In this document: positions 1,816 through 60,400 of the stretch, in pieces
Position numbering within the stretch: position 1 is the stretch's first letter
Layout of the letters: every line of letters starts with the position of its first letter
NCBI GenBank assembly: GCA_965285935.1
Contig: OZ260663.1
Coordinates: 75,888,001 to 75,952,000 of the forward strand
DNA: 64,000 bases
DNA from: Ophelia neglecta
Lineage: Eukaryota
Direction: 5' to 3'
Notes under the pieces: generated by a model
What the model was told of the DNA's origin: nothing
Databases searched by the model: none
The model's input: the letters and a program-made list of their open reading frames with translations, nothing else
Translations under genes and position numbers: made by a program

Positions 1816-2124
1816 TCTAGATTATTTGCTTATTTTTGCTGATCTATATTTTGCAGAATTTTTTTTTACGATTGAGAAACTATCAAAGGGCAAAGATATC
1901 GTAGTCGATAGGATATACCTTAAATTTGGTTATTGTTTTACCATCATGAAACTTGCGGGTTAAACTTACTAGATTTAACTGCGTGTCCTTACAACGTACT
2001 AGAACATGGTCAATTTATAAAAGTGAACTTGTGCGATAAGGCTTGACCCAAGGCCTAGACCAGTACGATGTTTACATTCTAGGATGACCTCATCTTTAAA
2101 AGATGAAGCATTGATTTAACCAAC

Positions 2125-14261: not shown

Positions 14262-14422
14262 AAAAAGGTATGGGTCCCACTGTATTGGACGGGCTACCGA
14301 ACGCCGCCTATTCACAGGCGCGATCCCACTACTGCTCGACACGGAGACTTTTGCCTGCTGCGTTTCCGCCCTGGGCCGGTACGTCTCTCCTTAGACAACC
14401 TGGTACCCCTGGACTCCTCCGA
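14262..14422 (-). pseudogene. 7SL (SRP) RNA copy lacking its 5' 142 nt
   Basis: Identical to 30807-30967 of the full 7SL gene and ends in a T5 terminator. The junction is at CCGA (14419-14422), beyond which the sequence resembles the upstream flank of the full gene. Confidence 0.9.
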
Positions 14423-26026: not shown

Positions 26027-29000
26027 AATATTACACTGTGTATTCCTTCCTTGAGGTCGTTCACAGTTGTCGATATTGTAAAGCAGAGACTTTGATACAA
26101 CCTAAACAAAGGAGGGAGGCAAATTAATCCCAGTAAAAATATGTTAAAACCAAGCTGAACCTAAACAAATATATTCGCATGTGTAATTAAAGGTTGTAAA
26201 TAACTCATATAAGGAAGATGTTTGTGGCTGATATTTATTTTGCCTAGGCAATAACCCGATTTTTGAGATGAAAGGGAAATTCCTTGGTTTATGATTTCGC
26301 CAGGCCTATGCATGGCCGTTTTTCTACCTCGATTACAGATAAAAACAGTGCAGGGGCTTACGTTTTTGTGTGATTTGTTAGTTTAGTAGTACCCCATGAT
26401 CAACTACCAAAAAAGAAAACAACAATGATATGTTTGATATTATATAAATAAAATCATTCATATGTTTGGCATCGTTTGGACCCAACCGTGATCACTTTTC
26501 TTCGCTTAGAAACATCTTTATAGGCAAAAATTTGATTCATGTGAACAAAATATAAAAAGGCACCCTAGATTTAAGCTAGCGTTATCTAGCCACCTTAACG
26601 AGCTGCTAAATTAATGGCGAGGTCTACAGTCCATGCAAAAACAGACTATCGAAGTACGCCGTCAACATGGATGTAGAAGGTGATTACGTATGGATATATT
26701 CATCGAACATTAACCTCCTGTATTTACCGCCTTAAAAAAGAAAAATGACAATGATTTATTTGTCTAAAGGTATAAACATTGCAGAGCCCTGTTTACAGGG
26801 TGTAAGCACCAAACAATATAAGTTGTTACTTCTTTTAGACATACATGAAGGGGTCAGCAATTACAGTCAACAAAACACTTGATTGATCTTCGCTGTATAG
26901 CTTGACAAGCATCTTTAAAATAATTATGCGTTTTGTAATGCTTACTTCGATGGCGGACAGAAACGTGACTTATAATGCTATGATGAAATAGCAATCTGGA
27001 TACTTTAAATGTCTTTGATGCTGCACTGCAAGGAATCCTTGTTTTTTTTTTGTTTTTTCGTTCTTTTTTTTTCGCTTCGCAATCAAATTTATGGTTTCAT
27101 CTGTACCAGTTCTGAAGTGTCCGGAAATATTCTTGAATTTAAAACATGACTGCATTTTTGTAGTTCCTAAATTAAAAATTGAGCTTTAAGTTGGCCTTCA
27201 AAATCTTATATAAGGTTATTGAACATTTTGCATTAGAAATCCCAAACTTTCAAGTTGAAGTTATCATATTGCCCTTGTGGGTTGTCTGCATCAAAATATC
27301 AGAATAATTATTGTTAGACAAAATGCCTTATCTGCAACACTTGTCACCATGTTTAATTTCAGAACTGGTGTCAGCTAACTTTCATCTTATCTGAAATCAT
27401 AACTTCAATGAGAATGTTTTTACTCTCATGGGTCTAGAATGGGTGTAAGCAAAACTTAATTTGTGATTTGAATGAGTTTTATATATTAGGTATACCTTGA
27501 GCTGGAATATCATGGGACCATTAAAATAATCTAATTTAGAATTCATAATATCAATACATTTCCTGTTGTATGTCCCTGCTAATTCGACTTGTTTTTATGA
27601 TGTAGATGTCCTTGTTTCTACTGTAAACGGCAGGATGCAAAAGTGAATGAAAAACAATCAGAACACCCAGTAAAAACGAACGACCTGTGAGAAAAATTAG
27701 CTTCGATGAGTCGTACATTGCTTAATAGTCAATATGGCGCAATTTTCACCTAAGCCATCCTAAAGAGGACGGCTGTCTCAATAATGTCATACTGATTTGT
27801 TACTGAGAACTAATTGTTCTCAAAACGAAATTTAAACATCTAGTGGTCATTCCGTTTTATCATGATAAATGCATATGCCGACATCTCCAGGCCACATTTA
27901 AATAACAGGGAAATAGATTTATAATAAGGTTTATGAGCTTTACGTACATATACATACTTTTCCGCATAACATGTACACTATTAAAAATTCTGTAAGCAAT
28001 TATACGTTATATAGTTTCACTTGTATATTTTAATCATAGATGCATCAGAGATTATTGCCTATATAAATGATCAATATTCGTACCATGTTCATGAAAACGC
28101 TTTGGGCCTAAATTGAATTGAATTGAATTGAAAAAAATTATTTGATTCTACAACGACAATTATTTACAATATATTTATATTGATGACAATAAGTAAGTAG
28201 AAACGTGGACGCCAGCAATGGCTAAAGCTGTATGAGCTGGACGCCCACATAGTATTCATGATTAGATGCCAGTTACCAGACTGCTTAAGGCTACATAGAG
28301 CGAATGTTATTTACATTGAGGGAACATTTCATAAAGTGAACGTAAACAAGCGAAAATAAGAAAAAGATAGCATAGAGAAAGAGGGCAAGGAAAGAAGGAG
28401 AGAGAGTCATACAAATTGGGTATCATTTTATAGACAAGAGAAATGTTGGACAGACTTAAGAGGGCAACTCAAATAATGCTAACAAAAGTAAGAACAAAAC
28501 TACCAAATGTAAAAAGTACACTATGGCTAAGCCATGTAGAACATATATTATGGCACACAATTAAGGCAAATGGGACAAACATTGTTCGTATACAATTTGA
28601 AATTAAACTATGGCTAGGCCATGTAGAAATTAACATATGATTAACATTGGAATATTGGTCACAGATATATCTTTTAGTGTGATTATTTTCATTGAACTCC
28701 TGCTAAACTTGAAAATCTAGACAAAGAATAACTACAGTCATGGAATGTAGTGAAAAAAATGATATTTTCGGTGCATCATAATCTCTGGCGAAAACCGGCC
28801 ACATTACACTTCAATTGGAACCTCGGGGCTCCGGGATGCACGCGGGGCTAGCGCCCCTTGTGAATCAGCTACGCCCCTCGGCAGTTAATCATTACATGAA
28901 ACATTAAAATCTTACCTGTTTTCTCTGTAACTTCAATAATTATGATATTCCTCGCCAATGCGTCCCTGCATCAATTCTTTGGGACGCCTCTCATTGGATG

Positions 29001-30134: not shown

Positions 30135-30804
30135 ATTGTGGATTCCTGTGTTTATACCTACATGTACGTATGTATGTGCAGTTGAAGCCATTCACATTGC
30201 ATCCTAGCGAAATTGCCCTTTTACTGCTGTTAAATTGGGTTAAAATCTTGGATTTTATCTTGTCTGTAAGCTGTTTTATGGGCCGATTTGAACAACATAC
30301 CTTTTAACTTCGATCATCCGTCATATACCTCGGAAATGTTGATGAAAGTGAAGAATTATTGGCTGGAACAGACGCTATTTATGATTCATTCAATTGCCGC
30401 ATAATCTCGCAGCCGAATCTCGCGAAACACCGTTCAAATCTCGCAGGGCAAAGGCCAGCCAGAAATACTACTGCGAATCTATGTATTCTCTATATCTATG
30501 ATAGAACTACAATTTCTTAAATTGAATTAGATCTACATTGAAATGCAGCATGATTCCTGCATATTCCTGGTGGGATATATTACGTAGGCTTGTAAGCTTG
30601 TTATATGAAATCCAAAAGTACATATTTCTCGTAGGCCTACTCAATCAATAGACACCTCATACAGTTTCTATAATTCACATCCAAAGCATGCCGGCTGTCT
30701 GTTTCTATATGCATACATTGATACTTAAAGGTTATATCACTCATTGATGAAAGCTTCAGTACGTATATATCCATAAATGATATTTGAATTGCTGAAAAAA
30801 ATTT

Positions 30805-30811
30805 AAAAAAA
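30805..30811 (-). terminator. RNA polymerase III oligo-T terminator of 7SL
   Basis: T7 run immediately after ...GGGACCCATACC. Confidence 0.9.
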
Positions 30812-31106
30812 GGTATGGGTCCCACTGTATTGGACGGGCTACCGAACGCCGCCTATTCACAGGCGCGATCCCACTACTGCTCGACACGGAGACTTTTGCC
30901 TGCTGCGTTTCCGCCCTGGGCCGGTACGTCTCTCCTTAGACAACCTGGTACCCCTGGACTCCTCCGAAGGCACCATATTGATGCCGAGCTTAGCGCGGAC
31001 ACCCGATCGACATAGAACGACGAGCGACAGGAACCCCGCCCTCAAGCCGTCCACCACACCCGGCCTCCAAGTAGCTGGATTACAGGAGAGCGCCGCCACT
31101 CCCGGC
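30808..31106 (-). ncRNA. RN7SL: 7SL signal recognition particle RNA gene, full length (~300 nt)
   Basis: The minus strand begins GCCGGGAGTGGCGGCGCTCTCCTGTAATCCAGCTAC (Alu domain). It contains GATCGGGTGTCCGCGCTAAGCTCGGCATCAATATGGTG, the helix 6 GGAG tetraloop, helix 8 GCCCAGGGCGGAAACGCAGCAGGC and CAGTAGTGGGATCGCGCCTGTGAATAG, all closely matching metazoan 7SL. Confidence 0.98.
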
Positions 31107-33580: not shown

Positions 33581-36500
33581 CTATGTTATGTTGACGAAGA
33601 ACTTCGGCAGGTGTCGCCTTGTCACGGAAGCTGTAAGAAGAAGAAACATGTACGCTTGTGTGTACTATTCAGATAGATATGTTTCTAGAACGTACTTCTA
33701 GGCATTATTTCACGGTGGGGAGAATGACTACATGCTGTTCATTAATCATTCACAGTTAGTGTTACTTTGCGAGCCATTTCTTCACCAATTCAAGCGGACA
33801 CAAGTGCATATCACAGTTCTACTGTGAATGACATTAACCTCAAGCTTAATAATGGAATATGTACCTGCAACTCTGTGATAGCCGATAGTTTCTAAACCCT
33901 TAATGAAGCATAACAGTATATCTCGGAGAAAATCAAACTCCTGTCGTAATCGAGAAAACACTAGTTTAAGCATGGCTCCGCATCTCTTCCTAACATCACG
34001 ATGGTCCGTTTGAATTTCGTACACGTCTTGTTCAGTCAGCCCCAGAGCTAGGCCCAAGGACCTCCAGTTGACTAGCACCGATGAACACTGTTTTAGCTCC
34101 TCGAAGAGGGACATCAATCTATTGCCTTTTATTGCGAACAAAATATGAAAGACGATATTTCTTTTAAATTACGTTTGTAACGTTGCTATCGTGAATTCAT
34201 TTAGTGGAGAAATCAAGCAGATAACAATTGTTATAATTTGCTATTATTTCAAGTCTTGCCGATGCAGACGATAAGACTTGTCGATGGAGTTCAGACATTT
34301 AATAATTCATACCTTCGCCCTTGATGACGTAGGCACTGTATCTGTCTTGCACAAAAGAAGCCTCCCTGTGTAACCCACTCTCCTTCAGGGTCACAACTAG
34401 TTTTCTTACCTACATTGAAACGTAAAATTATTATCTTCTTTTATTTCATCGTGGGAAATGGTGAAGTATTTATGATCAAAATGATGCCAAATTTACGTGA
34501 ATGGTTATTGTTTTCTTACAAACTGCTATTGTCTGTTGTCTCGAAAATCGTGCTGAAAAAAATTCAAAGGCTTTTTATTTTCAAGTGGCTACTTACAAGC
34601 GTTCCCTCACTTTTCTTGGGGTTGAGATTACGCCAGCGCTTTAGTAACTTGAAAGACACCAGATCAATCGTATTAGAGCTGTTTACAATGTCGTTTGTAG
34701 TGCTGGCATTCAGAAGTTGTCTCCCGAGAGACATAACTTTTAATTCATCTTTTTCCATATCCCAAGACAATCGTTTGAGAAAGTCACCAGTTAGAAATCC
34801 TCCTGTTTTAAATGAAAACAATCTCGATATAAATTTGACAACTGTACCAAAATCCGACATAGGAGATAAAGATATTAGCTCTGTTGCTCAAAAATTAAGA
34901 TATTAATTTGTTACAAGCTCTATATGGCAGAGTATCGAGTTCATCCCTCTCATGGATAAGAATGTATTTTACAAAGCAAACATACCCTCAACGTCTGGCA
35001 GTCCCAGTTCTTCCATCACAGCGTTACGTTGAAGATGTCCGTCAGAAGGCCCCTGAATACAAAAGGGTACCTGCACTAGTTAATTCATTATTGTCATACA
35101 GAAACATGGAACAGACGACAAGAATGTACTGATTTCTCGAGCATTTTACTAATAAACTAGCAGCATAACATTGCTGACCGGCTCTTGTCCTTCTAGTACC
35201 AAGAAACAGTAGCAGCTGGTCCTGCAAATATTAACATGTCCATGTACTGTGTACAAGAGGCGTAAGTTAGGTGGTATTTGTTTAGATCTAAGAACGCTTG
35301 TCTCAAACAACGAAATGCCTGTAACTCTGAATATGATTTTAATAATTACGATCTTTACCAGTGTTTCCATATCCTAACGGTGAATTCGAACTCGTTTGCA
35401 AATTCACGACGAAGACAGGTGTCGGGCTGGTACTTGGAAATTTTCTTATCTTTGACGTATAATGTGACCTTGGAACTTCGGAGATCTACGGATGACCGAA
35501 TAAAATTGGTATTGTTTGGTAAGTACGAGGAAGAAGTGACCGTGAGGCTGGAACGGGATAGATAGTTTCTTCTTAGTATTTAATCTAACTCCTGGCATAC
35601 CTGACAGTTTACACCGCAAACCCAGTTTAACACTTCCAAAAGTGTTCTTTCCTGGTTTAGGGACAAACAGGCTGATAGGTCGTTTTGTGGGCTCGCTCGA
35701 GGTGACCTTGATGATGGGACTCACAGCTGCGGTGCGCATGGCATTCTGGGTTGGTATCAGTGTCCGAAGATCTGTCTCATTCATATCAAGGGGTTCAATC
35801 TGTGTACAAAAAAAAATTTTTACTTGTATAGAAAATCGTATATTTCTAATTGACTAAATTGTATATTGTGAAGGATGTTTCTTTTGAGCTTTTTCGACTA
35901 ATAATGAATTTTTACGTAGTCATGTTGAATTCAGAAACGATAAATACAATTCAAGAAAAGCAAGATTGTAGAAAATGATGAGCGTATTGCCAAGGAGCAA
36001 TTGTTAAACGGCCAGGGTTTAAAATATTATTCTAAAATAAAGCATCTACCCTTATTTTGACGGTAGCGGACGTATCAAAAGATCTCCGTGCGACTTGGAC
36101 ACGAATATTTGGTTCCATGGTTGAGTGAAACTCTGTTCCCACCTCTTCTACTTCTCTAGCGTCCTCAATATACCTGGCTTTTAGATCAAAGACCATCATT
36201 CTGAAAGGGTCATTGATAAGGACCTCCAAGAAGTCAAACTCTTGGTTGTCCACCGGCATGCGAACCATACGACATTCAGCAAATCTCCATTGCAGAAGGT
36301 CCACAGTGTAGAGAAACGACATGTGCTGGAGAACATCGTTATATACGCCTGTGTTTACAGGCATATACAAGTAGATAGGTTCCTGGAAATATATGAATTA
36401 TCAAACTACTCTTAATTTTTAAAAGGATTTGATGAATATGAGGAATTAACATTCATATCAAAATTTGATCCATATTCACATATATGGATAGAATATGGAC

Positions 36501-39323
36501 ATATATCCGTGCCCTCGTCAAATGTATTATAAATAGACGCATGTTATCTAAGGATTAAGAACCAACAATACATGTATACATAAGAAATTCGAACTTTCTT
36601 GAATTCAATTGTAATGTTTGAAATTCATATGAACTGGATTAAAGTAAATGAAAACGTTTATCATAATTATGTACGTATGTATACTATACTATACTATACT
36701 ATATTTATATGTACATGTACATGTAGACCTTCATGATATCACACTCTCGCCTTTTGAATAACCTTCAACAAAATTGGTATGACCCATTAGGGCCTATAGA
36801 AGAATTTTGGACACCACGGTTTCTCCTGTTTTTCCCAGGCAACTTAATCTTAAAAGCAACATATTTAAGTAATAAAACAGCCCACGTACCCCTAAGGTGT
36901 GTACTTGTCGGTTAGTGTTCTTCCAGACAAGCTGCATCGGTGACAACACAACGGTCTCGTCTGCATCGAACTCAGCTTGCGGCAGGGGTGGTAGTTTACT
37001 GATTACATCACGTGCAACGTTGTCCACCAATTGAAGGCCTCGCTTCACATCCTCCAGCAATGACGGTGACGCTCGAACAAGGCAAGCAATGACATCTTCT
37101 TTCTGAAATCTATAAACACAAGAGCTTGCTATTTATTAGCATGTTTCATATCGTATCAAACTAAAGCTTACAGTGGTTAAAAGGTCAGTCCCTAACACTC
37201 AGGCAGAACGGGTACTGCCGTCATCCATAAGTTTTACTTCTAATTATCAATGTACAGTAACTGTGGTAAACATATTTATGTGTCACTGTTCGGTTGCTAT
37301 TTTTTCAAACTGGTTTTAGTCATGTCATACTTGTAAATTGGCCAACTTCTGTGTTCCTGGAAAGCTCTTGGCGGCACAAACTCCTCTTGAATATTACTTT
37401 CCGCGCCCTAAATTTAAAACAAGATGGAAAATCATTTACATTTTGTATGAAATGGCCAACAACCGGAGAGGCTTAACGGGTGCTTTAACCATTTTCCCTA
37501 TCAATCGAAGAAATTCTCATGCCAATTAAATTACTCACCGGCCCACGAGCACTGCTTTCAGGTAGTGATAATGCCTGGCTACTGCTCTCGTCGATGGCAG
37601 ACTCCTGTTCAAAGCGATCATAAGAAGTCGCCGGTTCTGGAGATTGGTATGCCCTTCTCACTTCTTCTCCTCTTCTGTCATCGTGAAAGCTTCGTTGGCC
37701 CGATTTGATGGACTGCAAATCAAAATCCTTGGCCTGTCTTTTAGAAGGCCTGCTTATCATATTCGTTGTGACAGAATTCTGACTGCTGTCTAAATGCAGT
37801 GTGGACAGACTATTGGTGTCAATACTTGCCGCTTCTTTCTTCCTTTGTCTAGGTTGAGAAGATACGATTTCATTCCAAGTTTCGCGGTCTGTAAACCGTG
37901 TTTTCTTCTCTTCTGTCTCGCCTAGTATTCTTTTGTACCGGAACAAAGAGTCCTTGTCGGTGTCAGAGTTAACACTCGGGAGAGAATACCTACTTAGGTC
38001 TGGCGTTTTGACGCTTGGGTTGACTGGTTTGGGGCTGTAATATGCTCCTCTAATTTCCGGAAGTCTTTCCCTTTTTCCGACGGTTGCAGGCTGATGCGCT
38101 CTGGCCTGTTGGTAGGTTTTAGGATCAGGGTCATGCCCATAATCCTCTACCCGGGAAGTGGATTTTATCACTGTCTTTATATCAGGTCTCACTGTCTCGG
38201 GAGTATTCCAGTGCTCGTTGTACATATATTCCCGACGATCTGCCTCCCTTATAGGCAACGAAGGCCTCTTCCTTTTTGGTGTCTTTCGTTTCGCTTCGAA
38301 CTCTGTGTCATTATACTCATGAAAGTCTTCTTCCTTCATGTAAATTTCTCCACTAACTTTATACATGCCTTTGTCCTTCTGATAAGTTCGGTTTTGTTTA
38401 GTGGGTTCCGGGGATCTATCGCTTATACTTCTTTGGGGTATGTCATAATAGTACTCATGTCCATGTATTTCCTGCGTTTTCGCCCTCCTTTCCTCTGTGG
38501 GACTATGAGTAGTATCTTGTCCATTTCTTTTGTCCCATATAGATCCACCACCACGGATTACTGGATGATCCCTTGTATGATTGTATGGACGTTTACTTTT
38601 ACTTATACGTTCACTCTGTGAATAATCATATAGTCTTGGCGATACATGGTCAAACTTCTTAGCTTTAGCAACATGTCGGCGTAAAATCGGGTCGTTTTCA
38701 CCATAGACATTTGGTGAAAATCTAGATTTGTCGTCATGCTGTGTGATTTGTTTTGGTGATAACACGTGGTCATTTTCTTTCTTATGGCGATTAGTTTCAT
38801 TTCTAGTTGTAAACTCTTTGTTTCTCTTGCGGGGTAGTGATTGTTCTGTAGCGGGAGAGAAGTTAGTCTTGTTCCGTATTGCCACTTTCCTTTCATGGTT
38901 ATTCTTTGGGCTCGGCTTAAGAACCTTATTAATAACCTGAGCCGTCTTTTCGGGATATTCTGGCTTCAGAGGATAATTTTTCTTACTGTTCTGCTTCGAG
39001 GACACTGGTTTTAAAGCGTTTCTTTTGACCACAGTATCCTGAGAATTTTGTCCTGACTTATTGTGTTCTACGGCTTTCTTCACTAAAACACTGTTGTTAG
39101 GCTGGTTATGTGATTTTTCCTCTGTGACTTTAAATGCTGCCAATGCCGCCTTCCTTCGTTGTTCATCCATTACTCTCTGGTTATTAATTTTCGTGCGTAC
39201 TTTCCTCTGGTTTTCTGCTTCCTCTGCCTTTCTTTCAGCCTCTTTCTGTTGCAGCAGGGCTTTGTATTGCCTCCATGACATACGCTGTGCCTGCTCGCCT
39301 GTATCCATAGTTCCACTGGGCAT
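33581..39323 (-). CDS. Protein with a ~595-aa basic low-complexity N-terminus, ZU5-ZU5-like domains and two tandem death domains (DTHD1/PIDD/ankyrin-type module)
   Basis: The large exon 39323-37539 splices in phase 0 to ~37102-36908 (ETVVLSPMQL). Then follow ~36383-36050 (HSTMEPNIRVQV), ~35800-35601 (AVSPIIKVTSSEPTKRPISLFVPKP, ZU5-like), ~35485-35359, ~35221-35179, ~35070-34986, ~34880-34597 plus ~34409-34313 (death domain 1: LTGDFLKRLS...LLKRWRN...LVVTLKESG), ~34125-33864 (death domain 2: NWRSLGLALGLTEQDVYEIQ...AMLK...GLETIG) and ~33630-33581 (stop TAG). Confidence 0.8.
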
Positions 39324-41205
39324 TTTGAATATATGAATCCTAAAAACTTCAGGAAAAGGAAAGCCTTACTCACTTAGTACCGCCGCATACCCAATATGTC
39401 ATGCTTCAAACAGTACTTCGATGATGTCCAAAAACATATCAAACTGACATTTTATCATTTAAGTCAAAGGCAAGATTTACCCAAACTTGTAGACTGTGAT
39501 TTTTATCACCGGACTAATTGATTTTGCCGTATACTCGGCGCTTTGCCTGGCGTTGAGGCGATGTGGACGGAACACATTTGGGTGTTTACTTCTTTGTGTT
39601 AGCGCATAGTGACCATAGCACATATCATGCATAACCAAACATTTTGAACGGTAGCACTGTTTAAAAAGCAAACACGGTCTTAACATCAAATGTGCGTCCA
39701 GTTCACTAACAGAATATCATGTTTGTCTCACCTCAAACCTTACCAACCGCATGATCGAGGCGACTTCTGATAGTAGACAAGTACATACAACCAACACTTG
39801 TCCATATAGTAAGGGTCAGAATTCGAAGAAAGAATTATTGCATTCCATTTATAGAGCTTTGTAAATTGTATGGGTATAAGTTGTTCTCTTCCGTATAGCG
39901 AACGTTATAGACATGTTGCTGAACTCATATGAGGATTTTAAAACGAGTAGATATATACATATAGCTAGAGTGCTTCAAATAGCATCTACTGGGGGGGGGT
40001 CATGTTCGTGATTTGGACTTCTATTTAATACTTGTCCCGTGGGTCATTATGTATTCATCCTATTATATATTTCCATTTTACTAAAATTTTAATCGTGAAC
40101 TTATATAAATTTGAAAATGAACCACTTCCAATGTCCCCTGCACACAGATCCTGGTCTTCTACCCTGATAACACCAGACAATGTGGGCAGGGTAGGCCCAC
40201 TTCCAATAGCACAGAAAGTCGAGAGATCATACATTTAAGTATACACTTTCTTGATAATATCACGAATCCGTAAAACACCAACTGCCAATGGACAAGAGGT
40301 TCAATGGAATGGAAAATATGCTTTACAAAACGTCATGCCTAAGTCTTGTTTTAAAAGTTTGCTTAAAGGAAAAAGACAATGTCAACTTCTTATCTAAGTT
40401 TGCAACAGATGTATTGATATATACATACATGTATTATAACTAACTGGCCTATATTAGGAACTATAGCAGTAAAATCATCATCAAGAAATGGTAAGCATAG
40501 CAACCACTTGATCATCACGTGAGAATTGTTACCCCTGATGAGTATCTAGGAAAAAATTCCTTTCTTTATACAACTATATTTGTGCAGAATGTTTTTGTTT
40601 TTTTTATGAGCTGCATGTGAACCTAACTGTCAGTTAATTTAATGTTTTAAATATCTCTAACGGTGTTTACCAGACAGTTCTAGACGTGCACTCATTCCCT
40701 AGTTTATTTCGACAATATGAGAATAATTATACTCTATGTTTAGCAAAGAATTTCATCGTGACCTTATCGCTGACATTGTATTTTATTCTGAAGGGCATAA
40801 ATAAACCAAGATTTTAAACCAGGCCTCATTATTTATTTTATTTTAATAACATATCTCAGTCATTTGGCTTACTTTACCAACAACAAATAACTAAAACTTT
40901 TATTTCAGTTTTGCACAAATATTTCCAATTTATTGATCAGCGGAAGACAACTTAATAATATAGATTGACGGAAAAAAATAGTTAAGCAAGTGTCAACACG
41001 ACCATCATTTAGAGTTCCTGTTGCACTGTTGCCTATAGACAATTGCTTATCTATTTTGTAACGTTAATCTACTCAATGATTACACTAAGATAAATTTGAA
41101 TGTGATAACACACGAAAGTTAAAATAAAATATATGTTATTTATTATTTTTGTCAGCTCAGAAGACAATTTTGTTCAGCCTGCATCAGTGGATAACTAGGC
41201 TCTCC

Positions 41206-47266: not shown

Positions 47267-50200
47267 TCATGGCATCACAAACCCAGTACAGTTCCACAGA
47301 GGTATTTGTGTACAGTATGGCGGGTGGCACCGGAAGTCATGTAACGCACCCGTAGCCTGCATAGCAAAGCCAATCGCTATACCTCCTCCAAACATGGCCG
47401 GCACAGCAATGAACGAAAACCAGTACAGCAGACCCATGCCAGACAAACCATGGCCGCTGAATCGGGAAAGAACGAATAATGCTTTGACAATGCGCTTTTT
47501 ATCAAAATATATATACGAGTTATTTACTGTTCATAAACTTGACCAGAAATACTATCATTTATTTGTGTCTTGTTGTTAAAAATAATACTCCTATGTAAAC
47601 AGCTGACTGATGTTAAAAATCTGGCAAATTTCTTCAACTTTCTCTTTTAATAGTATAAGAGGTGAAACCCACATTTTGAAAGGATCAACTTATGATTTTA
47701 CAGCTCACTTTTCTAACCATAATTCAACTTTAACATTGCCCCCCCCCCCCCCGCTGCCCCTAAACTCAAGAAAAATAAGGTTTTCACGTTTCATCTGAAG
47801 TAGGTATGTTCCTCTGTGGATAGGATGTAAATACCTGGTACATCCGGCTGCGAGTCTACTCCCAATGAGTAGCAATATTCCACCAAAAATGGCGGTTATT
47901 ATATTAGGACCCTGAGCAGTTGCAATGGACCGCGAGGATAATGCTGAAAAGGCCCCTCCGCCTACTGCAGCAACCACGTAGAAAACCTGAAGCAAAAGCA
48001 TAGAAATGTTGCTGCGTTGCTGAAAATATTTTTCAGTTTCAAGATATCAATACATGTACATCTAAAGCAGTATTAATAGAACCAAAGATAACTTCAATGA
48101 ATATTGTTGCGTTTTTACCAAGATGTCAATACATGTAAATTACTGTATACCTACCTGCCACCAATTTCCTAAGCCACACCTAGCACCTGCGAAATAAGGG
48201 AACAATTTCTGCAGGCGTTTACCAACAAACAGCTGTGCTATTATGGTGACGTAGGCACTGCTGCCGCCCAGCGTGTCGCCTACCGCAAACACTATAAAAA
48301 CCTGTAAGACGCCTATCACAGCTCCTGGGAATAGAAACGTAATGTAGGGTTTAGCGTTAATGTATATTTTCAATATTATACGCAATATGTTTATGAAACA
48401 TTACGATGGGAGCACTGCTACGCCAATATAATATTTAAAATTAATGATTATGTACAGTATAATTAAAAAGTAAATGTATGCAATATTCGACAAGGCAGAA
48501 TTTTCTAGGCCTACTGCAATTATTTAAGTTCACACACTTGCCTGCGACACCTGGCGGCCAAGCCTTCTGTGTAAATATGTTAGAAGACCAGGGTGTGGCT
48601 ATATAATTACGGTCCTGTAATTGTATCATCTCATACTAAATGTGTGGGTTTCATATCATATAATGAACAACATGGTACGTCCTGTGTTGCTTCTGGTATA
48701 AAATTGTATTTCAGAGACATAAAACATTTTAATCAGAATTCCTTTATACGAATTTTGAAAGACGAACTTGCCCAACAATCCAAATCGTTCTGCCAAGGGA
48801 TAAAAAATTCCATGAGAAACACAACCACGCCCAGAAGTATAGCCATAGGGAGGGCCACAGCCACATACGGCCAGTTGAGTTTTTGGTGAATCCTACGAGT
48901 AAATAAAAAGAAATATTAGGCAACACCGAATACATGCCATTTTTCATTATTTAGATTGCGGATTTTCCTGGGAAAAGAGACGTGTGGGTGAAAAAACGCG
49001 ACTTTAATTCCAGCCATTAAATCATGATTTTGGTAGGTGCTGAAGGGTGCTTAAGGATTTTACATTATTTATAGTTGGAGGGGGGGGAGGGGGGGGGTGG
49101 TTGATACGCAAAATGAAACCGTGTAAAACTGAATATCAGTGTCCAAAGTTCCCCCCCCCCCACGAGAATTGGTCAGAAAGTGTTCGTCCCCCCCCCCTTC
49201 CATAGACCATCTTTGACATCATTTCTGACTTTTGACACACCCTGTTCATCTTTGATATAATGTCCGGCTATTGACATCTAAAATCCGCATTTAAGTATTC
49301 CATGTCTGTCTTTTCATGAAGTGTCCTCCTTTTGACAGTAACTGTCCCTTTTGTTTCAATCCCCTGTCTGTTATTCGAGTTATTCCCTAGTTTGCCTTCG
49401 ACCATTATTTCCCTGTCTCGATTTTGTTTTTCGTGCAACCTGTTTGGCATTGATAAGCGTAACTTACGTTAATGTTTTAAAGGAGTTCTTTGGTCTAGTA
49501 ATTCTCACGATAAATGGAGCTATCATTCCGTATATCAAGGCACCTATTAAAACTCCCACAAATGTGAATACTAGAAGAAGAAAAAAAAAGTAGATGATCA
49601 AAACTTTTTTTCAGAATTTTCAATTATTTCCGGTATAATTCTGCAAACTATATTAGCTTCTATAAAAATAAGATACGTACTTGCGTTTTTAGCCCATGTG
49701 CCAACTTGTGGTAGAACCATACCCGGACACTGCAAGTAGGCGAAGTTTAACAATCACCGATATACGATGAAATTCAGCCACATGAAACTGAACATAGACC
49801 TAAAAGTTATTATATTACATCGAAAATTATATATTGACTATTGCATTCAAATCTTTTTATATAACAAGTGATTTGATGAAAATGGTTGCTTGTAGGCCTT
49901 ATGGCTTATTCAAGGAATTGCAATTAGATTAGACATTCAGTAAAAGCTACAAATCAAATCAGCACTCCCAGACCGAGTATAGACATCGAACAACAAAAAC
50001 GTTTTGTTATATCAGAATTTGATAGCTTATATTAAAATAACAGGTAAGGTACTCACAGGTTTTCGAAAGTGTGACATTAACAACTGAAACCTTTTATTTT
50101 ATTGATTTCATGAATAAACTACTGTTTCCTGTTAATTAATTCTATTCCCCTTTATAAGCTAATGCGAATTGACTGGAAAAGCAACCAATTAAAACACTTC

Positions 50201-53200
50201 TGGCTTTAACGGACCAATGAAAAGGCTTACTGCTCCGGACAGAACCATGCCAATTCCTAGAATAAAAGGTCCTAGGGCACTGGTCAGAAGACCTTTGTCG
50301 GCAAAGCAAGATCCGAATGCCTTAAACGCTCCCTGGATGTGGTCTTTGGCCTTCGGGATAACGGAAAGGATGGATAGACAAAGCTGACCTGAAAGGAAAC
50401 CACATTGACATGAGCAGTCCAACATCCATCCCGTTGTATACTAGGCCTAACTACAGTAATAGTCTTTTTCTTGTTATTCATAATTTCTTAAACTATATTG
50501 TTCATTGAAAAGTAGTGATCTCCCATTTATCTCGTAATAAATGTAATTGTTAAAGATCTCTAATAATGAGTAAAGTAGCACAGCTGTGATATATGATAAG
50601 GTTTGGTTAGTAGTTGTTTTAGCAGAGAGGCTAGAAGCGACCCTTCTGTACGAAACCAGTCGCAAGTCGAATCATTCCTCCACAGCCAATAAGAGTGTTC
50701 ATTGGCAGACGTGAATGATATTGAAAAGATGATTTATTATTTTCATTATAAAGTGAGCCGTATGCGAGTTTTATTTTCTCTGGGTAGTCTAGCATTAGGT
50801 AAAACCACCTACTTACGCACTGATCTTCAGCCCGTCGGACAAGAAGCGACGGGGGGGGGGGGTGAAGATGGGGGACGGTGAGGGAGAGGGGGAAGGAGGG
50901 GGGAGGGTAGGTATTGCCTCACCCATTAACAGAAGCATAACAATTTTCCTGCATGTCTATTGGCTAACAACTGCTTCGAATAAGCGGTTATATTACTAAA
51001 ATAAATCTTAGTATTTTACACTGATTTCATGTCAGGATATTTACCAGATGCAACAGCAGCCAGGAACATCTTCAACATGACCCATCGTTTCATCACCATC
51101 TGTAGTCTTATAGAGGCGGCTTCGAATACTAGATTAATAAAAAATACATATAAGTGTGATCAAAGTAGGTTTTATGCATTCAATTGAACACGAACATCTT
51201 GGTTATATATTACAAACATGTAGCGGAACTATGACGCAACAGGATTAAAATAGCGATAAATATATGACAAGATTATATTAGTAAATGACCATGGCTATGA
51301 CATGTTATGATACATGGCTTGTGTATACTGGGAAATAAATATATGGTTTTTGAGACAGCAGTTAGCTCTCTTAATGTTTCTCTTAATGTTTCCTGGCAAA
51401 CTGCACTATCCCCAACGCGAGTATTATGAGAACTGGGACATATCCTCTGTCCTAGGCCCTTGTGATATTTCAGAAGGGCTGCATCTGTTGAGAGTCCTAC
51501 GGTATACAGATTGGAGTGGATCAAACAAGTCATTAATCGCAATATGATATCGATACGATTGTCCACCACCTTCTCGAGCAACTAAAAACGTAGGGCAGGT
51601 AAAACACTGGTCTACAGTTCTTAAAAGTGCACGTGCAATTGCTCGATTGAAACATGCTGGAAAACAAACTGACATCAGGGATTCGTATACACTTTCTCTG
51701 TGATAATAGGGTTAAGTTCATCCTCACATGCCTTCACCAGCCCGGAAGGAATAGGGACAGCCTCACATGATTTTCAAGGCGACTTAAGAATAAGCTCTCT
51801 GATTTCAGACAGAGACGCAAGCTGAAAAGTTGTGAGCGCTGACTCGTCAAAGACAGGATCCCTGGACATAATGGAATTATCCTGGCACTTACAGTTCTCT
51901 TACAGATTACCTCTTATATAGTTATGGTCTTTTTCAAACAACCTCAGGGTACACCTGAAACTGCTCGAGGTACGTGCATTATTCTTCAAAGAATGTTGCT
52001 ATATTTAGTCCAATTGCCATTGAAGACAGTGGTCGATAAGCCGCGCACAAATGTACACGACCCCAATCCAGAATAACTTCATATTGTATGTGTTCAAAAT
52101 TTGTAACAGTCTGCTCAGCCGTAGAATTAACCACTTTAATGCTAATTTCCATTTTAGATACCACAGGAAACCCTCCCCAAATTGTCCATATTGGCGAGGG
52201 GCATTTTCCCATAACCGGAAGGTAAGAGTTCACTAATAACCACTTTATCGATGTCTAAACCATGCCAGGTTTCTGTAATTGTCAGTATGTTTATGTCATT
52301 GGTCACCACATACTCTGAAAGGGAGACCCGGTCTTGTTTTGACAGACCGAGCACTGATACTGTAAGCATAAATGACTTGAATCGGGCTCCCTATAGTTGC
52401 TTAATTTCCTTCTTTTTCAACTACAGAGAAACCTGACAATAAGGGACAGCCAAGGGACTGGGAAATCTGTCTTCTTTTCTCAGTTGTCCTTATTTCACAG
52501 GTTACTTGTAAAGTATCACAACTGTACTAAAAACGATGTCCTTAATAGTCATTGTGTCCATAATTGTCAGGTGCCCTTTGGGCTGGTTTTACTGTAAATG
52601 GGTTCAACCGTAATAACTGTGTTTACATTCAGTCCAGGTTGACCTGAGGAGTTGATTCCAGAGTCCTCGTGCATGCTTGACACTTCTTAATCATAGACCT
52701 ACGGATTGGATATCAATCAAGAGCAACAGTTCAGGATCCAAGCAAATATTAATATGACCAGTCTTCCTACGTGACATGAATAATCTGCTCGGAATGTGTT
52801 TTACCTTCTTCTTGGTCTGAAGCTGACCTTTTCAGGAGATGTACAATTAGAAATCTTCATAATTTATACCAATCGTGACAGTAAAATACCCCCAAAGCGT
52901 GAACAGGCTAGCTACAGCGATACTTAGTTTAGTCCTATATTCACTTGGCTATTCCATGATCTCATTTTTGGTTTAATGTTGTATTGAGGGAACCGAGATT
53001 AGTTTAATATGAGACCTCTGGGGAGAAAATACCTGATTCAAAAGGCACGGTACACAAAATCAGTGTTTGCTTGTATCTGTTTACGAGTTCAGGTGTAGAC
53101 GGTGTCCCCCGGTGGTATCACAGGGGCTTGTGTCAAAGCCTTATAACGTATAGGTATGTTGACACAAGCCCCTGTGGGTAGTATACACTTATAGCCGATA

Positions 53201-53797
53201 TAAAGTGAATCCGGCCTTTAAAAAAAACCTCTATATCAAGACAACGTGAAATTTAAATACCTATCTGTCAACCTAGTAGTCTCTATTCAGATTGAAAATC
53301 AGGATAATAAAGCCAGTTGGAAATTGCCAGCACACGAAAACTTACAGTAAACGGTTAGCCTATATGTGTAGGCGTTTTTCCATAGGAAACCTATCTCTGT
53401 TCTCCCTCAGTAATAAATTTAATTTCCCGACAAAAATATATCGTGATCTGAGAAATTTTCATTTTCGAGAAACTTCTTTACCGTGTTTTAGAAGGATGTG
53501 GCATATGAACTTACCCCTGCCTTTCTCCAAACACCAACCGAATATAATCCCAGCCACCACACACAGGAATAGGTCAAGGAACACCCGTCCTGGGCGACTT
53601 TCAGGCGCACAGCATTTCAAACAACATCCCCCGTCTCTTGCGATGTCGTCTCCTTTTTCTGTTTCCTCAACCACGATTCGTGTTGTTGAGTTATAGGTCG
53701 GGATTGTTCCCGTGCTAGCCAATGGTACGTTTTTGTCCTCATTTTTATCATCATTTTCCATTTTAGCATCTGCCACTGCGGATATTTTTGTTGTCAT
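47267..53797 (-). CDS. YeeE/YedE-family (TsuA-like) sulfur-compound transporter, 10 coding exons
   Basis: Exons: 53797-53515 (GIIFGWCLEKGR), 51128-51045 (MLKMFLAAVASG), 50388-50231 (GIGMVLSGA), 49729-49681 (CPGMVLPQVG), 49570-49468, 48892-48772, 48614-48542 (AWPPGVAG), 48324-48155 (TLGGSSAY), 47986-47835 (GSRLAAGCT) and 47456-47267 (SGHGLSG). The family motifs GxGMxLxGxCPG and GxRxAxGCTSGHG are present and the frame is continuous. Confidence 0.92.
51290..52390 (-). mobile_element. Degenerate CR1/L2-clade LINE ORF2 (endonuclease and start of RT) in YeeE intron 1
   Basis: Peptides INILTITETW, AAYRP, SLSEIRELILKSP*KSCEAVPIP, KNCRPVFYLPY, LEKVV and FDPLQSVY, interrupted by stops and frameshifts. 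Confidence 0.85.
53119..53176. mobile_element. 58-bp mini inverted-repeat element with 18-bp perfect terminal inverted repeats
   Basis: CACAGGGGCTTGTGTCAA-(22 nt)-TTGACACAAGCCCCTGTG, flanked by ggtat and ggtag. Confidence 0.65.
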
Positions 53798-55981: not shown

Positions 55982-57445
55982 CAACAATTAATTACATGAA
56001 AGAAATACTACTGGTAAAGATAATTTTCAAAGATCTTAAAGGCAAACATTGCAAAGGTGGGGTGACCACCATGCCACAAGGCCATGAAAATTGGCCCGCC
56101 CAACCCGATACCGCAGTGAGTAAGGCGACTAAAAGTTGATATACGCCACATCTTTGTAGGAATGTTTGTGTTGATATTTTTCTTCTTTTTGGGGCATATT
56201 GCATTGTTTTTCACGATTCTAATCGGTTTGCCAATGCCGATGCTTTGACGCATGGTCATTTATGTGTACACGCTGAAATTATTTGGTTTTCGTGCGTTGC
56301 AGTCACAACTAAGCTGTCTCACTATCACCGAAAACCAGTCCCCTGATTTCCATCGCCGAAAACCTGGTTTTTTACATTCGCCGAATCAAAAGCAAATTGT
56401 GGCCACACTGCAGTGATAACCATATAGTTAATATTTTTACTTTTAAATGACAGCGTTCTCATTTATCTTGTTTTTGTGTTACGTTATATCACCGTCCTCT
56501 TTATAAAAGGTGTCCAAGTTGATGTTCATTATGTTCAATATACATGTCATAATTATACCAATTAACATTTTAATAAAAGCTGAGCTGGTGTTTTGGACGT
56601 GTGCTTAGTTACAAGTAATGGAACGTTCTTCTCGTTATATTTTCAGGCGTAGAGCAAACACAAATATAAACAGCAGGAAGCTAGATGCGGGTCCTCGGTA
56701 ACACACCATCCCGGATAGAATGGCCAAAGAATCGACAAGTTACATCGCGGCCAATCACATGACTGGTTTTAGTATAATGCAGTGGGGATCAATGCAAAAT
56801 GCGGGTATTTTTCATGATGGCTTGTATAACAAGGTAGACCAAGATATGTGTAGGCCTACGCCCTGCATTCGGACAACGTCACTCCAGCAGACGACTGGCT
56901 CTACCGATACTTGCACATACCATTTGACGTGGTCGGAATACCATATAGGTTCATGGAAAATTGAATTCATTTGCAGGAACACAGTCGCAGAAAAACATTA
57001 GGACAGTTTCGCTATTTCAAGGTATTTCTAAGTAAACCAGCTTAACCGTTTATTTTGAAGTTTACCTTTTCCTTTCAATTCTATTGCAAATAATGTATTA
57101 TGAGAGTGTCATAAACCAAAGAAAATAATTGTAGGCCTACTTCTAAAACAAACTATCACTTTATAATTCTTTTCGACGACGAACTTCTCATTAATTCGGT
57201 GCATGTTTGTCTATTTAAAATCGTTATATCACTTTTCATTATCAGTATGAGCATACCTATCATATCTTAACTTTAGAATCACTCCATTAATTCCGATTTG
57301 ATAGAATTTGTAAAGGGCAAAAATTCTGAAAAATAGGACGACTGTAACCAACAAGAGCATAATCCGACATGGGTATATTGGCATTGAATTTACACTAATA
57401 GGTAAACACTGATATTTTCACAGCGACATAGAAGAAAAGAAAAAT

Positions 57446-60400
57446 ATGAAGGATTTGGAGAAGGTATCGCTGCTGAAAGAAGCCAGCCCCATCTCCAGGG
57501 AAGACTCACACAGCCATGACTATCACTCCGTGGCCAACGGTCCGACAGACGAGATAACTCCACTCCAGAGCAATGGAATTGCTAAACCTACCATGAACAG
57601 ACAGAAGTCGCTGGTTTTGAAGGAAGGGATGACTCTCTCCTGGGAAAATATCAATGTACAGACCCCTCCACAAAAACAAGGGGGATGTCTGCCGTGTGGC
57701 AAGAAGAAGGAACCACTGCCTCCGAAACGCATCTTGAAAGACGGTAGGAATAAATACCTCTGACTGCTTGGTATATTCAAAACAACAAATGTGTTTCTTC
57801 CCAGCACCCAATCCAAGCATCCCACCCCCATCCACCCACTCAACTCCCGCCTTCTGGTTATTTTCCCATGAATTATACGTATTTACGCCTAAAATAGCAT
57901 GAGTTGTATTTGTTTTGATAAAAAGTTAACGTATCGTTACTTTCTCTATAACTAATGCCACTGCTTCATTTTTTCAGTTAGTGGGGCTGTTCAGCCGGGC
58001 ACGCTTATGGTAACCATGGGTGCCAGGTAAGAAGTCAATCATTGTACAGTTTGGCAAATACTGCTATTTCTGGCCATAACTGCTAGAAAACGGTTTCATT
58101 CATATAAAACTAAAGTCTACTGGAATCCAGTGTTAAATATGAGTACTCTTACTGAAATCACGCACTATCAACTCCTTCTTGTAAAATATAACAATTGTAA
58201 TTGTGAATTATGAAAAATAGTCGTTGGTCAATAAAATACGAATCTACTTTCCAATTCCCAGTGGCTCCGGAAAGACAACACTCATTAATTGTCTGACAAA
58301 ACGAAATCTTGGAGCTCTCACTGTGTCTGGAGAAATAAGAGTTAATGGTCAAATCATTGATGAAGATATTAACAGTATATCTGGTTATGTCCAGCAAGAA
58401 GACTTATTTGTTGGCACCATGACGGTCAGCGAGCACCTGTGGTTTCAGGTAAGGTAACCCAGCACACAAAACCTTAATACAGAAATGATTTAATAACCAC
58501 CATTTTAAATGTTTGCCGCCGATTACGAAATGAGCAGGTACATTATTATGGTCTCCACACAGGCTAGGTTACGTATGGACAGTGATATTAGCATAGATGA
58601 AAAGAAACAACGTATTCAAGACGTCATGGTTGAGGTGAGAACGTTGGATTAGAAAAAAATTTGATAAATAGATGAAACAATTCAGTATGCTATTTTCATT
58701 ACAAGATGCAAGAGTATCGTTCTTGGATAATTACCATTTGCCTTAATTATGAAATACTGAACATCATTTATCCTTTTTTTATTTATATTTATGCTTTTAA
58801 GTACACGCGTTTGCATTATTAATATTGCACAAATCTAGGCTATATAAACCCGTTGTATTGATATATAAGGCACTTATTAATATTCTTTTATAGATGGGCT
58901 TGCTCAAGTGTAAGGATGTATTTATTGGCGTGCCAGGCATGTTGAAAGGTCTGTCCGGGGGAGAAAAGAAAAGACTATCATTTGCTACAGAAGTGAGTTA
59001 TACCAGGTTTTTAACATGTCTTGCTTGCCCGGAAAACACTGTTAAAGTAGTGTTTTTTAGATCAACATACATGAAATTTACTCATTTTACCTAAGGTCCA
59101 CACTTGTGTATAGGTATTATGCAGCCTTGTAAAGTCAGCTAATATCCGGTAGTATACACTTGGGACCTATATAACAGTATTCTGGCGCTTGCAAATCTCA
59201 TTATTCGCGACCTTCGTAGCCTTTAGAAGCTAATGTTTCAATGTTTTAAATGTTTAGTTGTTAAGAAATCCACCGATACTGTTCTGTGACGAACCAACCA
59301 GCGGCTTGGATTCGTTCATGGCTCAGAGCGTCATGGAAATCCTTCTGAATTTGGCCAATAACGGACGTACTCTGCTGTGTACTGTTCACCAGCCCTCCTC
59401 AAATGTTTTTCAAATGTTTGACAAGTGAGTAAATTACCTTCTATTAGTAAAGTAATGTTTAATATGAAAGGCAATATTAAACTTGATGGATGTAGATAAC
59501 GGAACAACCCTTCATTATATCGTTCTTTCTAGGCTTTTGTTGATGGCCGAAGGCCGCGTAGCCTATATGGGCGAGACAAGTTACCTGAATGAATTCTTCA
59601 GGGGGTATGTATTATACACTTGTATAATAAATATACTAAATTAAACTATATTCATGGCCAGTTTTAGTTTTAGGGCGTGCTATATGTTTAAGTTTCATCC
59701 GCCTTGTTTTGTTTTGATTACTTCAACAAGCACTAAGTAAGGGCTTTTAAAACATCATTCCCATGTTAAATTCCCATATGAACAGCTGAAAGTAGCCCCA
59801 CTTATCCCAGCCTTACCGCTGCCTTTTAATTGCAATCAGCTTTGGAGGTAAGAAAAGTGGTTGTTGGTCAGCAGTATGAAACATATCCGACTGGCCCTAT
59901 TGCTAACAATCTTATGTATGGTATGTCTATGATATGATGGCGCAAGCCCAGCGGGTTAATTTTGGAAATATTACAAGAAATTAATTTCAAAACGTTCGGT
60001 TGTTTATGCTTTCTTTTACCTAACTCTATTGATTAGCTACGTCTTTTTTCATTCAGCTATGATATGGAGTGTCCTCCTAACTTCAACCCGGCCGATTTTT
60101 ACATCCAGTCGCTAGCTATTGTTCCGGGAAATGAGATTGAATGCAGAGCCAAAGTCAATGTAAGACAATATTCAGATAATCATAATGTTCAATTTTCTAT
60201 AATCACATATTTACAGTTTATGAGATTCGTGTAATATTTAATCAAACTTGCATTTAATAATGAGTTATAGCAATGACCTACCGGTAAATGGTAGAAGGTC
60301 GGCTGGCTGTTTCCTTTTCAATAGCCAACTCTTCTTGTTCGTTTTCATCCGCACACCTGTCTCTGCAGGCTATCTGCGACGGTTTTAAAGAGACCAGTCA

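What the first reader, a model, noticed from the sequence alone, without database searches (positions are those of the whole stretch)
47267..53797. Intact, intron-rich animal gene for a YeeE/YedE (TsuA-like) sulfur-compound transporter
Seen in sequence: a 10-exon open frame with the Cys-containing loop motifs SGACPG and AGCTSGHGLSG. Established: YeeE/TsuA mediates thiosulfate uptake in bacteria through conserved cysteines, and the family has been characterised essentially only in prokaryotes. To my knowledge it is absent from mammals, Drosophila and C. elegans. The first-loop Cys of TsuA (RGRFC-type) is replaced here (KGRVFE), while extra Cys clusters occur at the N-terminus (GGCCLKCC) and C-terminus (CHPPYC...NC). 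Inference: an uncharacterised animal route for moving thiosulfate or persulfide, for example exporting sulfide-detoxification products or exchanging sulfur with symbionts. It is either an old eukaryotic gene lost in model animals or a domesticated horizontal transfer.
Basis: partly seen in the sequence, partly recalled or inferred. Interest (0 to 1): 0.72.

Follow-up and report, generated by a model that had tools for sequence, protein, structure and literature searches.

The report
Flipped bacterial-type sulfur channel in animals
An invertebrate carries an intact ten-exon gene for a membrane protein of a sulfur-transporter family studied so far only in prokaryotes; relatives occur in many invertebrates and protists, and they are predicted to sit in the membrane the other way round from the bacterial ones, so they may move reactive sulfur out of the cytosol rather than take thiosulfate in.

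Summary
Observation confirmed: ten exons on the minus strand (53797-47267) give an unbroken 460-residue YeeE/YedE (PF04143) protein; two introns are GC-AG. It is not peculiar to this animal. Orthologues occur in annelids, molluscs, brachiopods, echinoderms, hemichordates, amphioxus, sponges, choanoflagellates and other protists, and RefSeq auto-names them 'TsuA-like'. The scan earlier noted a family member in Naegleria. The eukaryotic proteins form one clade, sister to an uncharacterised two-gene pair found mostly in Alphaproteobacteria; a transfer straight into animals is rejected (AU p=0.0016). It is not a TsuA: it keeps two of three cysteines and lacks the loop-C arginine. New here: charge bias says the eukaryotic proteins are inverted in the membrane (183 of 185, against 0 of 76 bacterial pairs), and one protist lineage fuses a DUF442 sulfurtransferase to the N-terminus. 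Best reading: a two-cysteine relay for sulfane sulfur between cytosol and lumen or exterior, likely outward. Substrate, direction, location and expression in this species are untested. The terminal cysteine clusters are lineage-specific and nothing supports a symbiont role. New variant of a known kind; interest 0.55.

The parts
53515..53797 (-). Exon 1: acidic 70-residue N-tail without signal peptide, lineage-specific CCxxCC, helix H1, start of loop A
51045..51128 (-). Exon 2: loop A (Phe96, codon 51126-51124, stands at the site of StYeeE Cys22), H2, H3 with conserved Gln104 and Lys114
50231..50388 (-). Exon 3: Lys-rich H3-H4 loop and H4
49681..49729 (-). Exon 4: loop B with Cys176 (codon 49729-49727; StYeeE Cys91)
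49468..49570 (-). Exon 5: H6 and Lys/Arg-rich H6-H7 loop
48772..48892 (-). Exon 6: H7 and acidic H7-H8 linker with Cys265; ends at a GC donor
48542..48614 (-). Exon 7: rest of the linker (the fusion point of the two bacterial halves) and start of H8; ends at a GC donor; the following intron is absent from the paralogue
48155..48324 (-). Exon 8: H8, loop C (Asp-Thr, no Arg), H9
47835..47986 (-). Exon 9: H10, H11, Arg391 (47857-47855) and loop D Cys396 (codon 47842-47840; StYeeE Cys293); hits PF04143 alone
47267..47456 (-). Exon 10: SGHG of loop D, H12, H13, C-tail with three Cys and an N-x-T sequon, stop

Best explanation
This is an intact, intron-rich animal gene of the YeeE/YedE fold, inherited from early eukaryotes, whose product is predicted to lie inverted in the membrane relative to bacterial TsuA and likely relays sulfane sulfur (persulfide or polysulfide) through its two conserved cysteines from the cytosol to an organelle lumen or the outside. 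Shown: gene structure, family, fold of the nearest relative, two-cysteine core, eukaryote-wide clade, sister two-gene pair, reversed charge bias. Inferred: fusion of the bacterial pair in reverse gene order; N-terminus and the Cys396 face cytosolic, Cys176 face and C-terminus luminal; a cytosolic persulfide donor (glutathione persulfide or a sulfurtransferase) loads Cys396, sulfur passes to Cys176 and leaves on the far side. Untested: substrate, direction, compartment.
For: Cys176 and Cys396 in 108 of 108 homologues and both in 181 of 185 dereplicated ones; Cys at the C22 site in 2 of 185. AlphaFold model of the 61%-identical P0003: pLDDT 87, Z 31.4-33.2, rmsd 2.5-3.1 A over 296-329 residues to YeeE, next fold Z 5.9. 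Tree: fused proteins 97/87, with the two-gene pairs 100/100. 79 of 80 bacterial loci are split, loop-D half first; the 80th is cut by a contig end. Lys+Arg: four loops against four, the periplasm-equivalent face is richer in 183 of 185 eukaryotic proteins and the cytoplasmic face in 76 of 76 bacterial pairs; E. coli TsuA control 22 in, 2 out; window protein 18 against 10. Sequons 20 vs 6.9 expected in loop A and 18 vs 6.8 in the C-tail, 14 vs 49.6 in loop C, 1 vs 8.3 in loop D. N-terminal DUF442 fusion with a CRxGxR-type motif in one protist lineage; DUF442 is a sulfurtransferase family (PMC11094781, passages). The loop-D Cys codon is an in-frame TGA in 7 Desulfobacterota loci, matching the listed GUxSG selenoprotein form (PMC13188914, passages), which points to covalent chemistry. 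The only tested two-cysteine members, YedE1E2, carry zero-valent sulfur one way and need both Cys, while the single-chain E. coli protein did not (PMC10812762, passages). 12 of 97 neighbours of the bacterial pairs that I scanned are sulfide or persulfide genes. A sponge host PF04143 gene rises by day together with SQOR (PMC12879404).
Against: No transport assay exists for this clade or its sister pair. The tested YedE1E2/PmpAB proteins are the short type, whose look-alikes branch far away. StYeeE C22A and R215A still take up thiosulfate, and Arg391 (177 of 185) could supply the missing positive charge. 85 of the 97 scanned neighbours are not sulfur genes, and I had no background rate. Topology rests on charge and sequon statistics; the H7-H8 linker and H10-H11 loop show no sequon excess, N-tails show no depletion, and the paralogue in this genome has no reversed bias when all five segments a side are counted (14 vs 12). 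Orientation need not fix direction if the relay is reversible. The DUF442 fusion is one lineage (4 of 292 proteins). Orthologues in land and freshwater snails argue against a purely sulfide-habitat role.
Confidence: 0.45

Rival explanations
1. It is a thiosulfate channel like TsuA, used in animals to let thiosulfate made by mitochondrial sulfide oxidation leave the cell (or to take it up).
For: Same fold and the two cysteines that are essential in StYeeE; C22A and R215A still work there. Sponge member co-regulated with SQOR. Inverted topology would put the thiosulfate entry face in the cytosol.
Against: In E. coli TsuA all three Cys and the loop-C Arg are essential; here the sites hold Phe and Val/Gly-Asp. 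NCBIfam TsuA models score 19-48 bits against cut-offs of 400 and 645. TsuA needs YeeD (PMC11073785, passages).
Confidence: 0.25
2. It relays sulfane sulfur inward: polysulfide from sediment, food vacuoles or lysosomes is passed to cytosolic glutathione or a sulfurtransferase.
For: Same two-Cys core; named carriers include phagotrophic protists, sponges, filter and deposit feeders; dileucine motifs in 11 of 138 N-tails against 3.8 expected; a fused DUF442 could accept as well as donate sulfur.
Against: YedE1E2 works from the loop-D face to the loop-B face only, and in eukaryotes the loop-D face is predicted cytosolic. The window protein has no dileucine motif.
Confidence: 0.15
3. It is a transmembrane thiol-disulfide or selenium relay rather than a sulfur carrier (a DsbD/CcdA-like role, recalled, or a YedE-like selenium role).
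For: Two invariant Cys in a thin central constriction; Sec in bacterial relatives; YedE proteins are linked to selenium in prokaryotes (PMC11582611, passages).
Against: Selenium YedE models score 21-34 bits against cut-offs of 200-350. DUF442 fusion and SQR, FCSD, persulfide-dioxygenase-like neighbours point to sulfane sulfur.
Confidence: 0.1
4. The gene is a recent horizontal acquisition of this animal lineage, or a silent relic.
For: Closest prokaryotic relatives are strikingly similar (about 30-40% identity in the best segments); no vertebrate, arthropod or nematode name among listed hits.
Against: Nine spliceosomal introns, eight shared in site and phase with a 38%-identical paralogue; two paralogue groups each hold protostomes and deuterostomes; animals-plus-bacteria clade rejected; animal-type neighbours on a chromosome-size contig; many relatives come from transcript assemblies.
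Confidence: 0.03

Closest known systems
TsuA/YeeE thiosulfate importer (E. coli YeeE; Spirochaeta thermophila YeeE, PDB 6LEO, 8K1R)
   Same: PF04143, nine-helix hourglass fold (Z 31-33 for the nearest relative), single chain in the same half order, Cys at the C91 and C293 sites.
   Different: 16-18% identity; Phe at C22; no loop-C Arg; extra conserved Arg391 and TSGHG loop; long N-tail; predicted opposite orientation; no YeeD partner found; far below NCBIfam cut-offs.
PmpAB / YedE1E2 two-subunit zero-valent sulfur importer (Serratia, Cupriavidus, Sinorhizobium)
   Same: One conserved Cys per half, two in all; RxxxGCTSGHG and CPG loops are shared with the short pairs recovered here.
   Different: Those are two 14-kDa four-helix subunits; this is one 460-residue chain. 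Short look-alike pairs (L090, L093) branch outside the clade. I did not hold the characterised sequences themselves.
Uncharacterised two-gene YeeE/YedE pair, about 172 + 206 residues, mostly Alphaproteobacteria (L002-L078)
   Same: Sister group at 100/100; same loop A (KxRVFEP), Gln104, Lys114, Gln298, Arg391, both Cys, His400.
   Different: Split, loop-D half encoded first, canonical charge bias with an Arg-rich H10-H11 loop that eukaryotes lack. I found no study of it.
SoxT1A/B of Hyphomicrobium denitrificans
   Same: YeeE fold; proposed to pass sulfane-derived sulfur rather than thiosulfate; DUF442 protein Rhd442 acts downstream (PMC11582611, passages).
   Different: Three essential Cys, sox gene context, prokaryotic import.
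RefSeq 'thiosulfate transporter TsuA-like' / 'UPF0394 inner membrane protein YeeE-like' of molluscs, echinoderms, hemichordates, amphioxus
   Same: Orthologues, 35-61% identical.
   Different: Names are automatic; the only mention of an animal member that I found in print is a line in a sponge transcriptome paper (PMC12879404).

Membership tests
YeeE/YedE family (PF04143) | Match to the Pfam model over the cut-off | tested here: met
   Nearest orthologue P0003 111 bits over positions 1-310; window exon 9 alone E=1.1e-4, 22.3 bits. The spliced product itself was not scanned.
YeeE/YedE family (PF04143) | Hourglass fold with nine TM helices and four re-entrant loops | tested here: met
   Model of P0003 (61% identical proxy): Foldseek E 1.3e-7, VIA Z 31.4-33.2 to 6LEO/6LEP/8K1R/8J4C.
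YeeE/YedE family (PF04143) | Cys in loop B and loop D | tested here: met
   Cys176 and Cys396 align with StYeeE C91/C293 and E. coli C94/C302.
TsuA thiosulfate importer | Third Cys in loop A (C22/C25) | tested here: not met
   Phe96; Cys in 2 of 185 homologues at that column.
TsuA thiosulfate importer | Loop-C arginine (R215/R223) | tested here: not met
   No Arg or Lys in loop C of the window protein; alignment there is uncertain by a few residues; 55 of 185 homologues have Lys or Arg within columns 304-308.
TsuA thiosulfate importer | NCBIfam equivalog cut-off (NF052577, NF041049) | tested here: not met
   19-48 bits against 400 and 645 for five homologues.
TsuA thiosulfate importer | N-out, C-in topology | tested here: not met
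   By charge bias only: reversed in 183 of 185 eukaryotic proteins and in the window protein.
TsuA thiosulfate importer | YeeD/TsuB (TusA family) partner | tested here: inconclusive
   PF01206 gave no match in the own genome, but that search is exon by exon.
TsuA thiosulfate importer | Thiosulfate uptake | not testable with these tools
   Needs complementation or proteoliposomes.
PmpAB / YedE1E2 | One conserved Cys per half | tested here: met
   definition from PMC10812762 and PMC11582611.
PmpAB / YedE1E2 | Two separate subunits of about 130-140 residues | tested here: not met
   Single 460-residue chain; short pairs branch elsewhere.
PmpAB / YedE1E2 | Zero-valent sulfur transfer to glutathione | not testable with these tools
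   Needs an assay.
SoxT | Three essential Cys and sox-cluster context | tested here: not met
   Two Cys; neighbours are CLCA, Xan_ur_permease, Death-domain and ABC genes.
Selenoprotein YeeE/YedE (GUxSG) | Sec codon at loop D | tested here: not met
   Codon is TGT here; TGA in 7 Desulfobacterota loci.

The most novel reading that the evidence does not exclude
Early eukaryotes took a two-gene sulfur channel from an alphaproteobacterium, plausibly the mitochondrial ancestor, fused it in reverse order and flipped it in the membrane, making a persulfide exporter. It survives as two ancient paralogues in many invertebrate phyla and is an unrecognised dedicated route by which animal cells move sulfane sulfur across a membrane, downstream of SQOR.
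Probability: 0.25. Interest if true: 0.8.

Novelty: new variant of a known kind. Interest (0 to 1): 0.55.

Why it matters
How sulfane sulfur and thiosulfate cross animal membranes is poorly defined (my own knowledge, no call). This clade offers a concrete candidate with two testable cysteines, present in tractable invertebrates and protists (oyster, Aplysia, sea urchin, amphioxus, Salpingoeca). The predicted flip in orientation between sister bacterial and eukaryotic proteins is a clean natural case of topology inversion after gene fusion, and it warns that the automatic 'TsuA-like thiosulfate transporter' label on these animal proteins is probably wrong in substrate or direction.

Tried and rejected
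Expression: no RNA holder listed for the locus; this is no evidence either way. Three contig runs of unrecorded kind, counted as one sample, cover the locus as DNA; of the 40 substitution rows shown (92 not shown) 7 are exonic, 3 synonymous and 4 missense at variable sites; the 12 indels shown (6 not shown) are intronic; too few and not independent, so not used. A fused, eukaryote-like copy in a gammaproteobacterial genome (G060, E=1.2e-85) was rejected as a eukaryotic contaminant: its neighbours read as an amino-acid permease and an SRPK-type kinase (recognised from recall) and it holds an apparent in-frame intron. A fused Desulfobacterota protein in the same half order (L130) branches with the delta-type pairs, a separate fusion; it was left out of the careful tree as a long branch. 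FastTree left eukaryote monophyly unresolved against the alpha-type pairs; the mixture-model tree on 54 of the 86 rows resolved it (dropped: long single-chain outgroups, five short-type rows, near-duplicates, L130, L089). Palpitomonas nests among animals, unexplained. TusA and DUF442 gave no match in the own genome; exon-wise search, absence not shown. Lysosomal sorting: dileucine excess is modest and absent from this protein; YxxPhi not enriched. No Sec form in eukaryotes was seen among truncated hits. Literature searches (listings) gave no functional or phylogenetic study of the eukaryotic clade; searches were swamped by unrelated papers; subscription journals are mostly not held. PMC6742746 concerns a Vibrio gene and PMC8310684 only cites YeeE (passages).
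Full report
1. The gene. Six-frame translation and splice-site listing give ten exons on the minus strand from ATG 53797 to TGA 47267; joined they read 460 residues with no internal stop. Introns are 110-2386 nt. Seven are GT-AG; introns 6 and 7 have GCAAGT donors. Both GC junctions reproduce the spacing of relatives: the nearest annelid proteins read through the same linker, and the alternative GT near intron 7 would delete three residues of a conserved helix start. The window is G000:C5:75888001-75952000 of a 762-Mb genome; neighbours carry CLCA, Xan_ur_permease, Death and ABC_tran domains (6 of 23 pieces scanned hit Pfam). This is native animal DNA, by the tree probably an annelid (closest named: Paralvinella 61%, Capitella 58%; clade 100/99).

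2. Family and fold. Exon 9 hits PF04143; nine of nine full-length homologues pass the Pfam cut-off. An AlphaFold model of the Paralvinella orthologue (98-row alignment, pLDDT 87, pTM 0.85) matches only YeeE structures: Z 31.4-33.2, next 5.9. The window's own spliced product was not folded; this is a proxy. Alignments to StYeeE and E. coli TsuA place Cys176 at C91/C94, Cys396 at C293/C302 and Phe96 at C22/C25. Loop C has Asp-Thr and no Arg. In E. coli all three Cys and the Arg are essential; in StYeeE C22A and R215A still complement (PMC7449682, parts 1-3 of 5 read). TsuA-specific NCBIfam models score about a tenth of their cut-offs or less. So: family member, not a TsuA.

3. Distribution. A Capitella query gave 118 hits, a 28-row profile 1369 hits of which 120 were listed, and a 98-row profile 703 representatives at E<=1e-30. 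Named carriers: annelids, brachiopod, bryozoan, bivalves, gastropods (marine, freshwater, land), echinoderms, hemichordates, amphioxus, a sponge, four choanoflagellates, Amoebidium, a chytrid, three amoebozoans, stramenopiles, Paulinella, Palpitomonas (30 proteins looked up by name). All 248 proteins with both halves have them in the same order. The genome has a second copy on C1, intact, 408 residues, 38% identical, with eight introns at the same sites and phases as eight of the nine here. The two copies fall in two groups that each contain protostomes and deuterostomes (SH-aLRT 90 and 98, quick LG+G4 tree of 50 rows).

4. Origin. At E<=1e-30 the type was met in 9 of 201 sampled genomes of the alphaproteobacterial class (centre genome included), in the centre genome plus one eukaryotic contaminant of 101 in the class of G004 and in 0 of 61 Desulfobacterota. 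In the LG+C20+F+G4 tree (54 rows, 318 columns) fused proteins form one clade (97/87), sister to these pairs (100/100 together). Holding animals with the pairs, apart from protists, is rejected (p-AU 0.0016). A single early fusion and vertical descent with losses fits best; a mitochondrial source is plausible but unproven, because the pair is patchy, occurs in a few other classes, and archaea and most phyla were not sampled.

5. Orientation. StYeeE is N-out, C-in, with loops A and B cytoplasmic and C and D periplasmic. Counting Lys+Arg recovers this for E. coli TsuA (22 in, 2 out) and for 76 of 76 sister pairs (mean 11.3 vs 7.1). The same four-against-four count is reversed in 183 of 185 eukaryotic proteins dereplicated at 70% (4.7 vs 12.8). 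Eukaryotes lost the Arg-rich H10-H11 loop and gained Lys/Arg in H3-H4, H6-H7 and after loop C. Sequons are in excess in loop A and the C-tail and depleted in loops C and D; three other segments are uninformative and H10-H11 goes slightly the other way. Long N-tails without signal peptide, juxtamembrane CC pairs (9 vs 1.8 expected) and a 380-450-residue N-terminal DUF442 fusion agree with a cytosolic N-terminus. The paralogue is an exception in the five-segment count. The flip is a prediction.

6. Substrate. Direct evidence is lacking. Indirect: (a) two-cysteine core like YedE1E2, which imports zero-valent sulfur, not exports it, and needs both Cys (PMC10812762, passages and section 3.2; yeeE/yedE rise when sulfane sulfur builds up, PMC9959259, passages), though these are the distant short type; (b) DUF442 sulfurtransferase fusion in one protist lineage (E=1.5e-15); (c) TGA at the loop-D Cys in 7 Desulfobacterota loci; (d) 12 of 97 neighbours scanned, out of 290 called, are SQR-like (3), FCSD (2), persulfide-dioxygenase-like (2), BigR-like (2), MBL-rhodanese, TauE or another YeeE; most of the NCBIfam hits are below cut-off and there is no background control; (e) in the sponge Aplysina a host PF04143 gene (log2 change 1.24, adjusted p 5.8e-5) and SQOR (0.55, adjusted p 0.02) are higher by day (PMC12879404, passages and supplement rows); I did not test that this sponge gene is of the same clade. 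If the protein keeps its loop-D-to-loop-B direction, the flip makes it an exporter. I commit to a sulfane-sulfur relay out of the cytosol (0.45), with thiosulfate channel (0.25), inward relay (0.15) and redox or selenium relay (0.10) as rivals.

7. Terminal cysteines. The N-terminal CCxxCC and the C-tail Cys are held by 2-11 of 185 proteins. Cys265 and a C-tail Cys occur together here, in Paralvinella and in Capitella and lie on the same, predicted luminal, face: a likely structural disulfide. The N-terminal pairs may be acylation sites (inference). They do not replace C22.

8. Novelty. The family is known and its presence in 'some eukaryotes' is stated in the abstract of PMC11073785; databases auto-annotate the animal orthologues; one transcriptome paper mentions a sponge member. 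Nine searches showed no study of the eukaryotic clade, its sister pair or its orientation; supplements of other papers were not seen and may list such genes. Verdict: real gene, new variant of a known kind, interest 0.55.

Noticed in passing
window 48615-48771 and 48325-48541: Two consecutive GC-AG introns; the second (after residue 290) is absent from the paralogue, so it was gained here or lost there.
   Followed up: partly
G000:C1:86042997-86051078 (L001, L082, L083): Intact nine-exon paralogue, 408 residues, 38% identical; loop B reads CPT instead of CPG and its charge bias is not clearly reversed.
   Followed up: partly
window about 52420-52600 and 53020-53250 (intron 1): High-copy repeats: summed contig depth about 10^5 and 10^3 in the laid runs.
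   Followed up: no
window 1-1805: Tandem repeat with a unit of about 140 bases.
   Followed up: no
window about 2100-11520, 18500-26100, 33800-39400, 57400-58450: Neighbouring genes: CLCA-like, Xan_ur_permease (SLC23-like), a Death-domain gene with a 626-residue exon, and an ABC transporter.
   Followed up: partly
window 14259-14422 and 30804-30967: A 164-base segment occurs twice at 99% identity.
   Followed up: no
L086 / G060:C23: A eukaryotic contig inside a bacterial genome bin, carrying the fused form next to kinase and permease genes.
   Followed up: partly
L118, L122, L124, L125, L127, L131, L136: Desulfobacterota split YeeE halves with in-frame TGA at the loop-D cysteine (selenocysteine form, listed in PMC13188914).
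   Followed up: partly
P0262, P0288, P0289, P0259: Protist proteins with one or two DUF442 sulfurtransferase domains fused N-terminally to the transporter; one lineage.
   Followed up: partly
P0091: A protein labelled Palpitomonas nests inside the animal clade; contamination, transfer or long-branch error.
   Followed up: no
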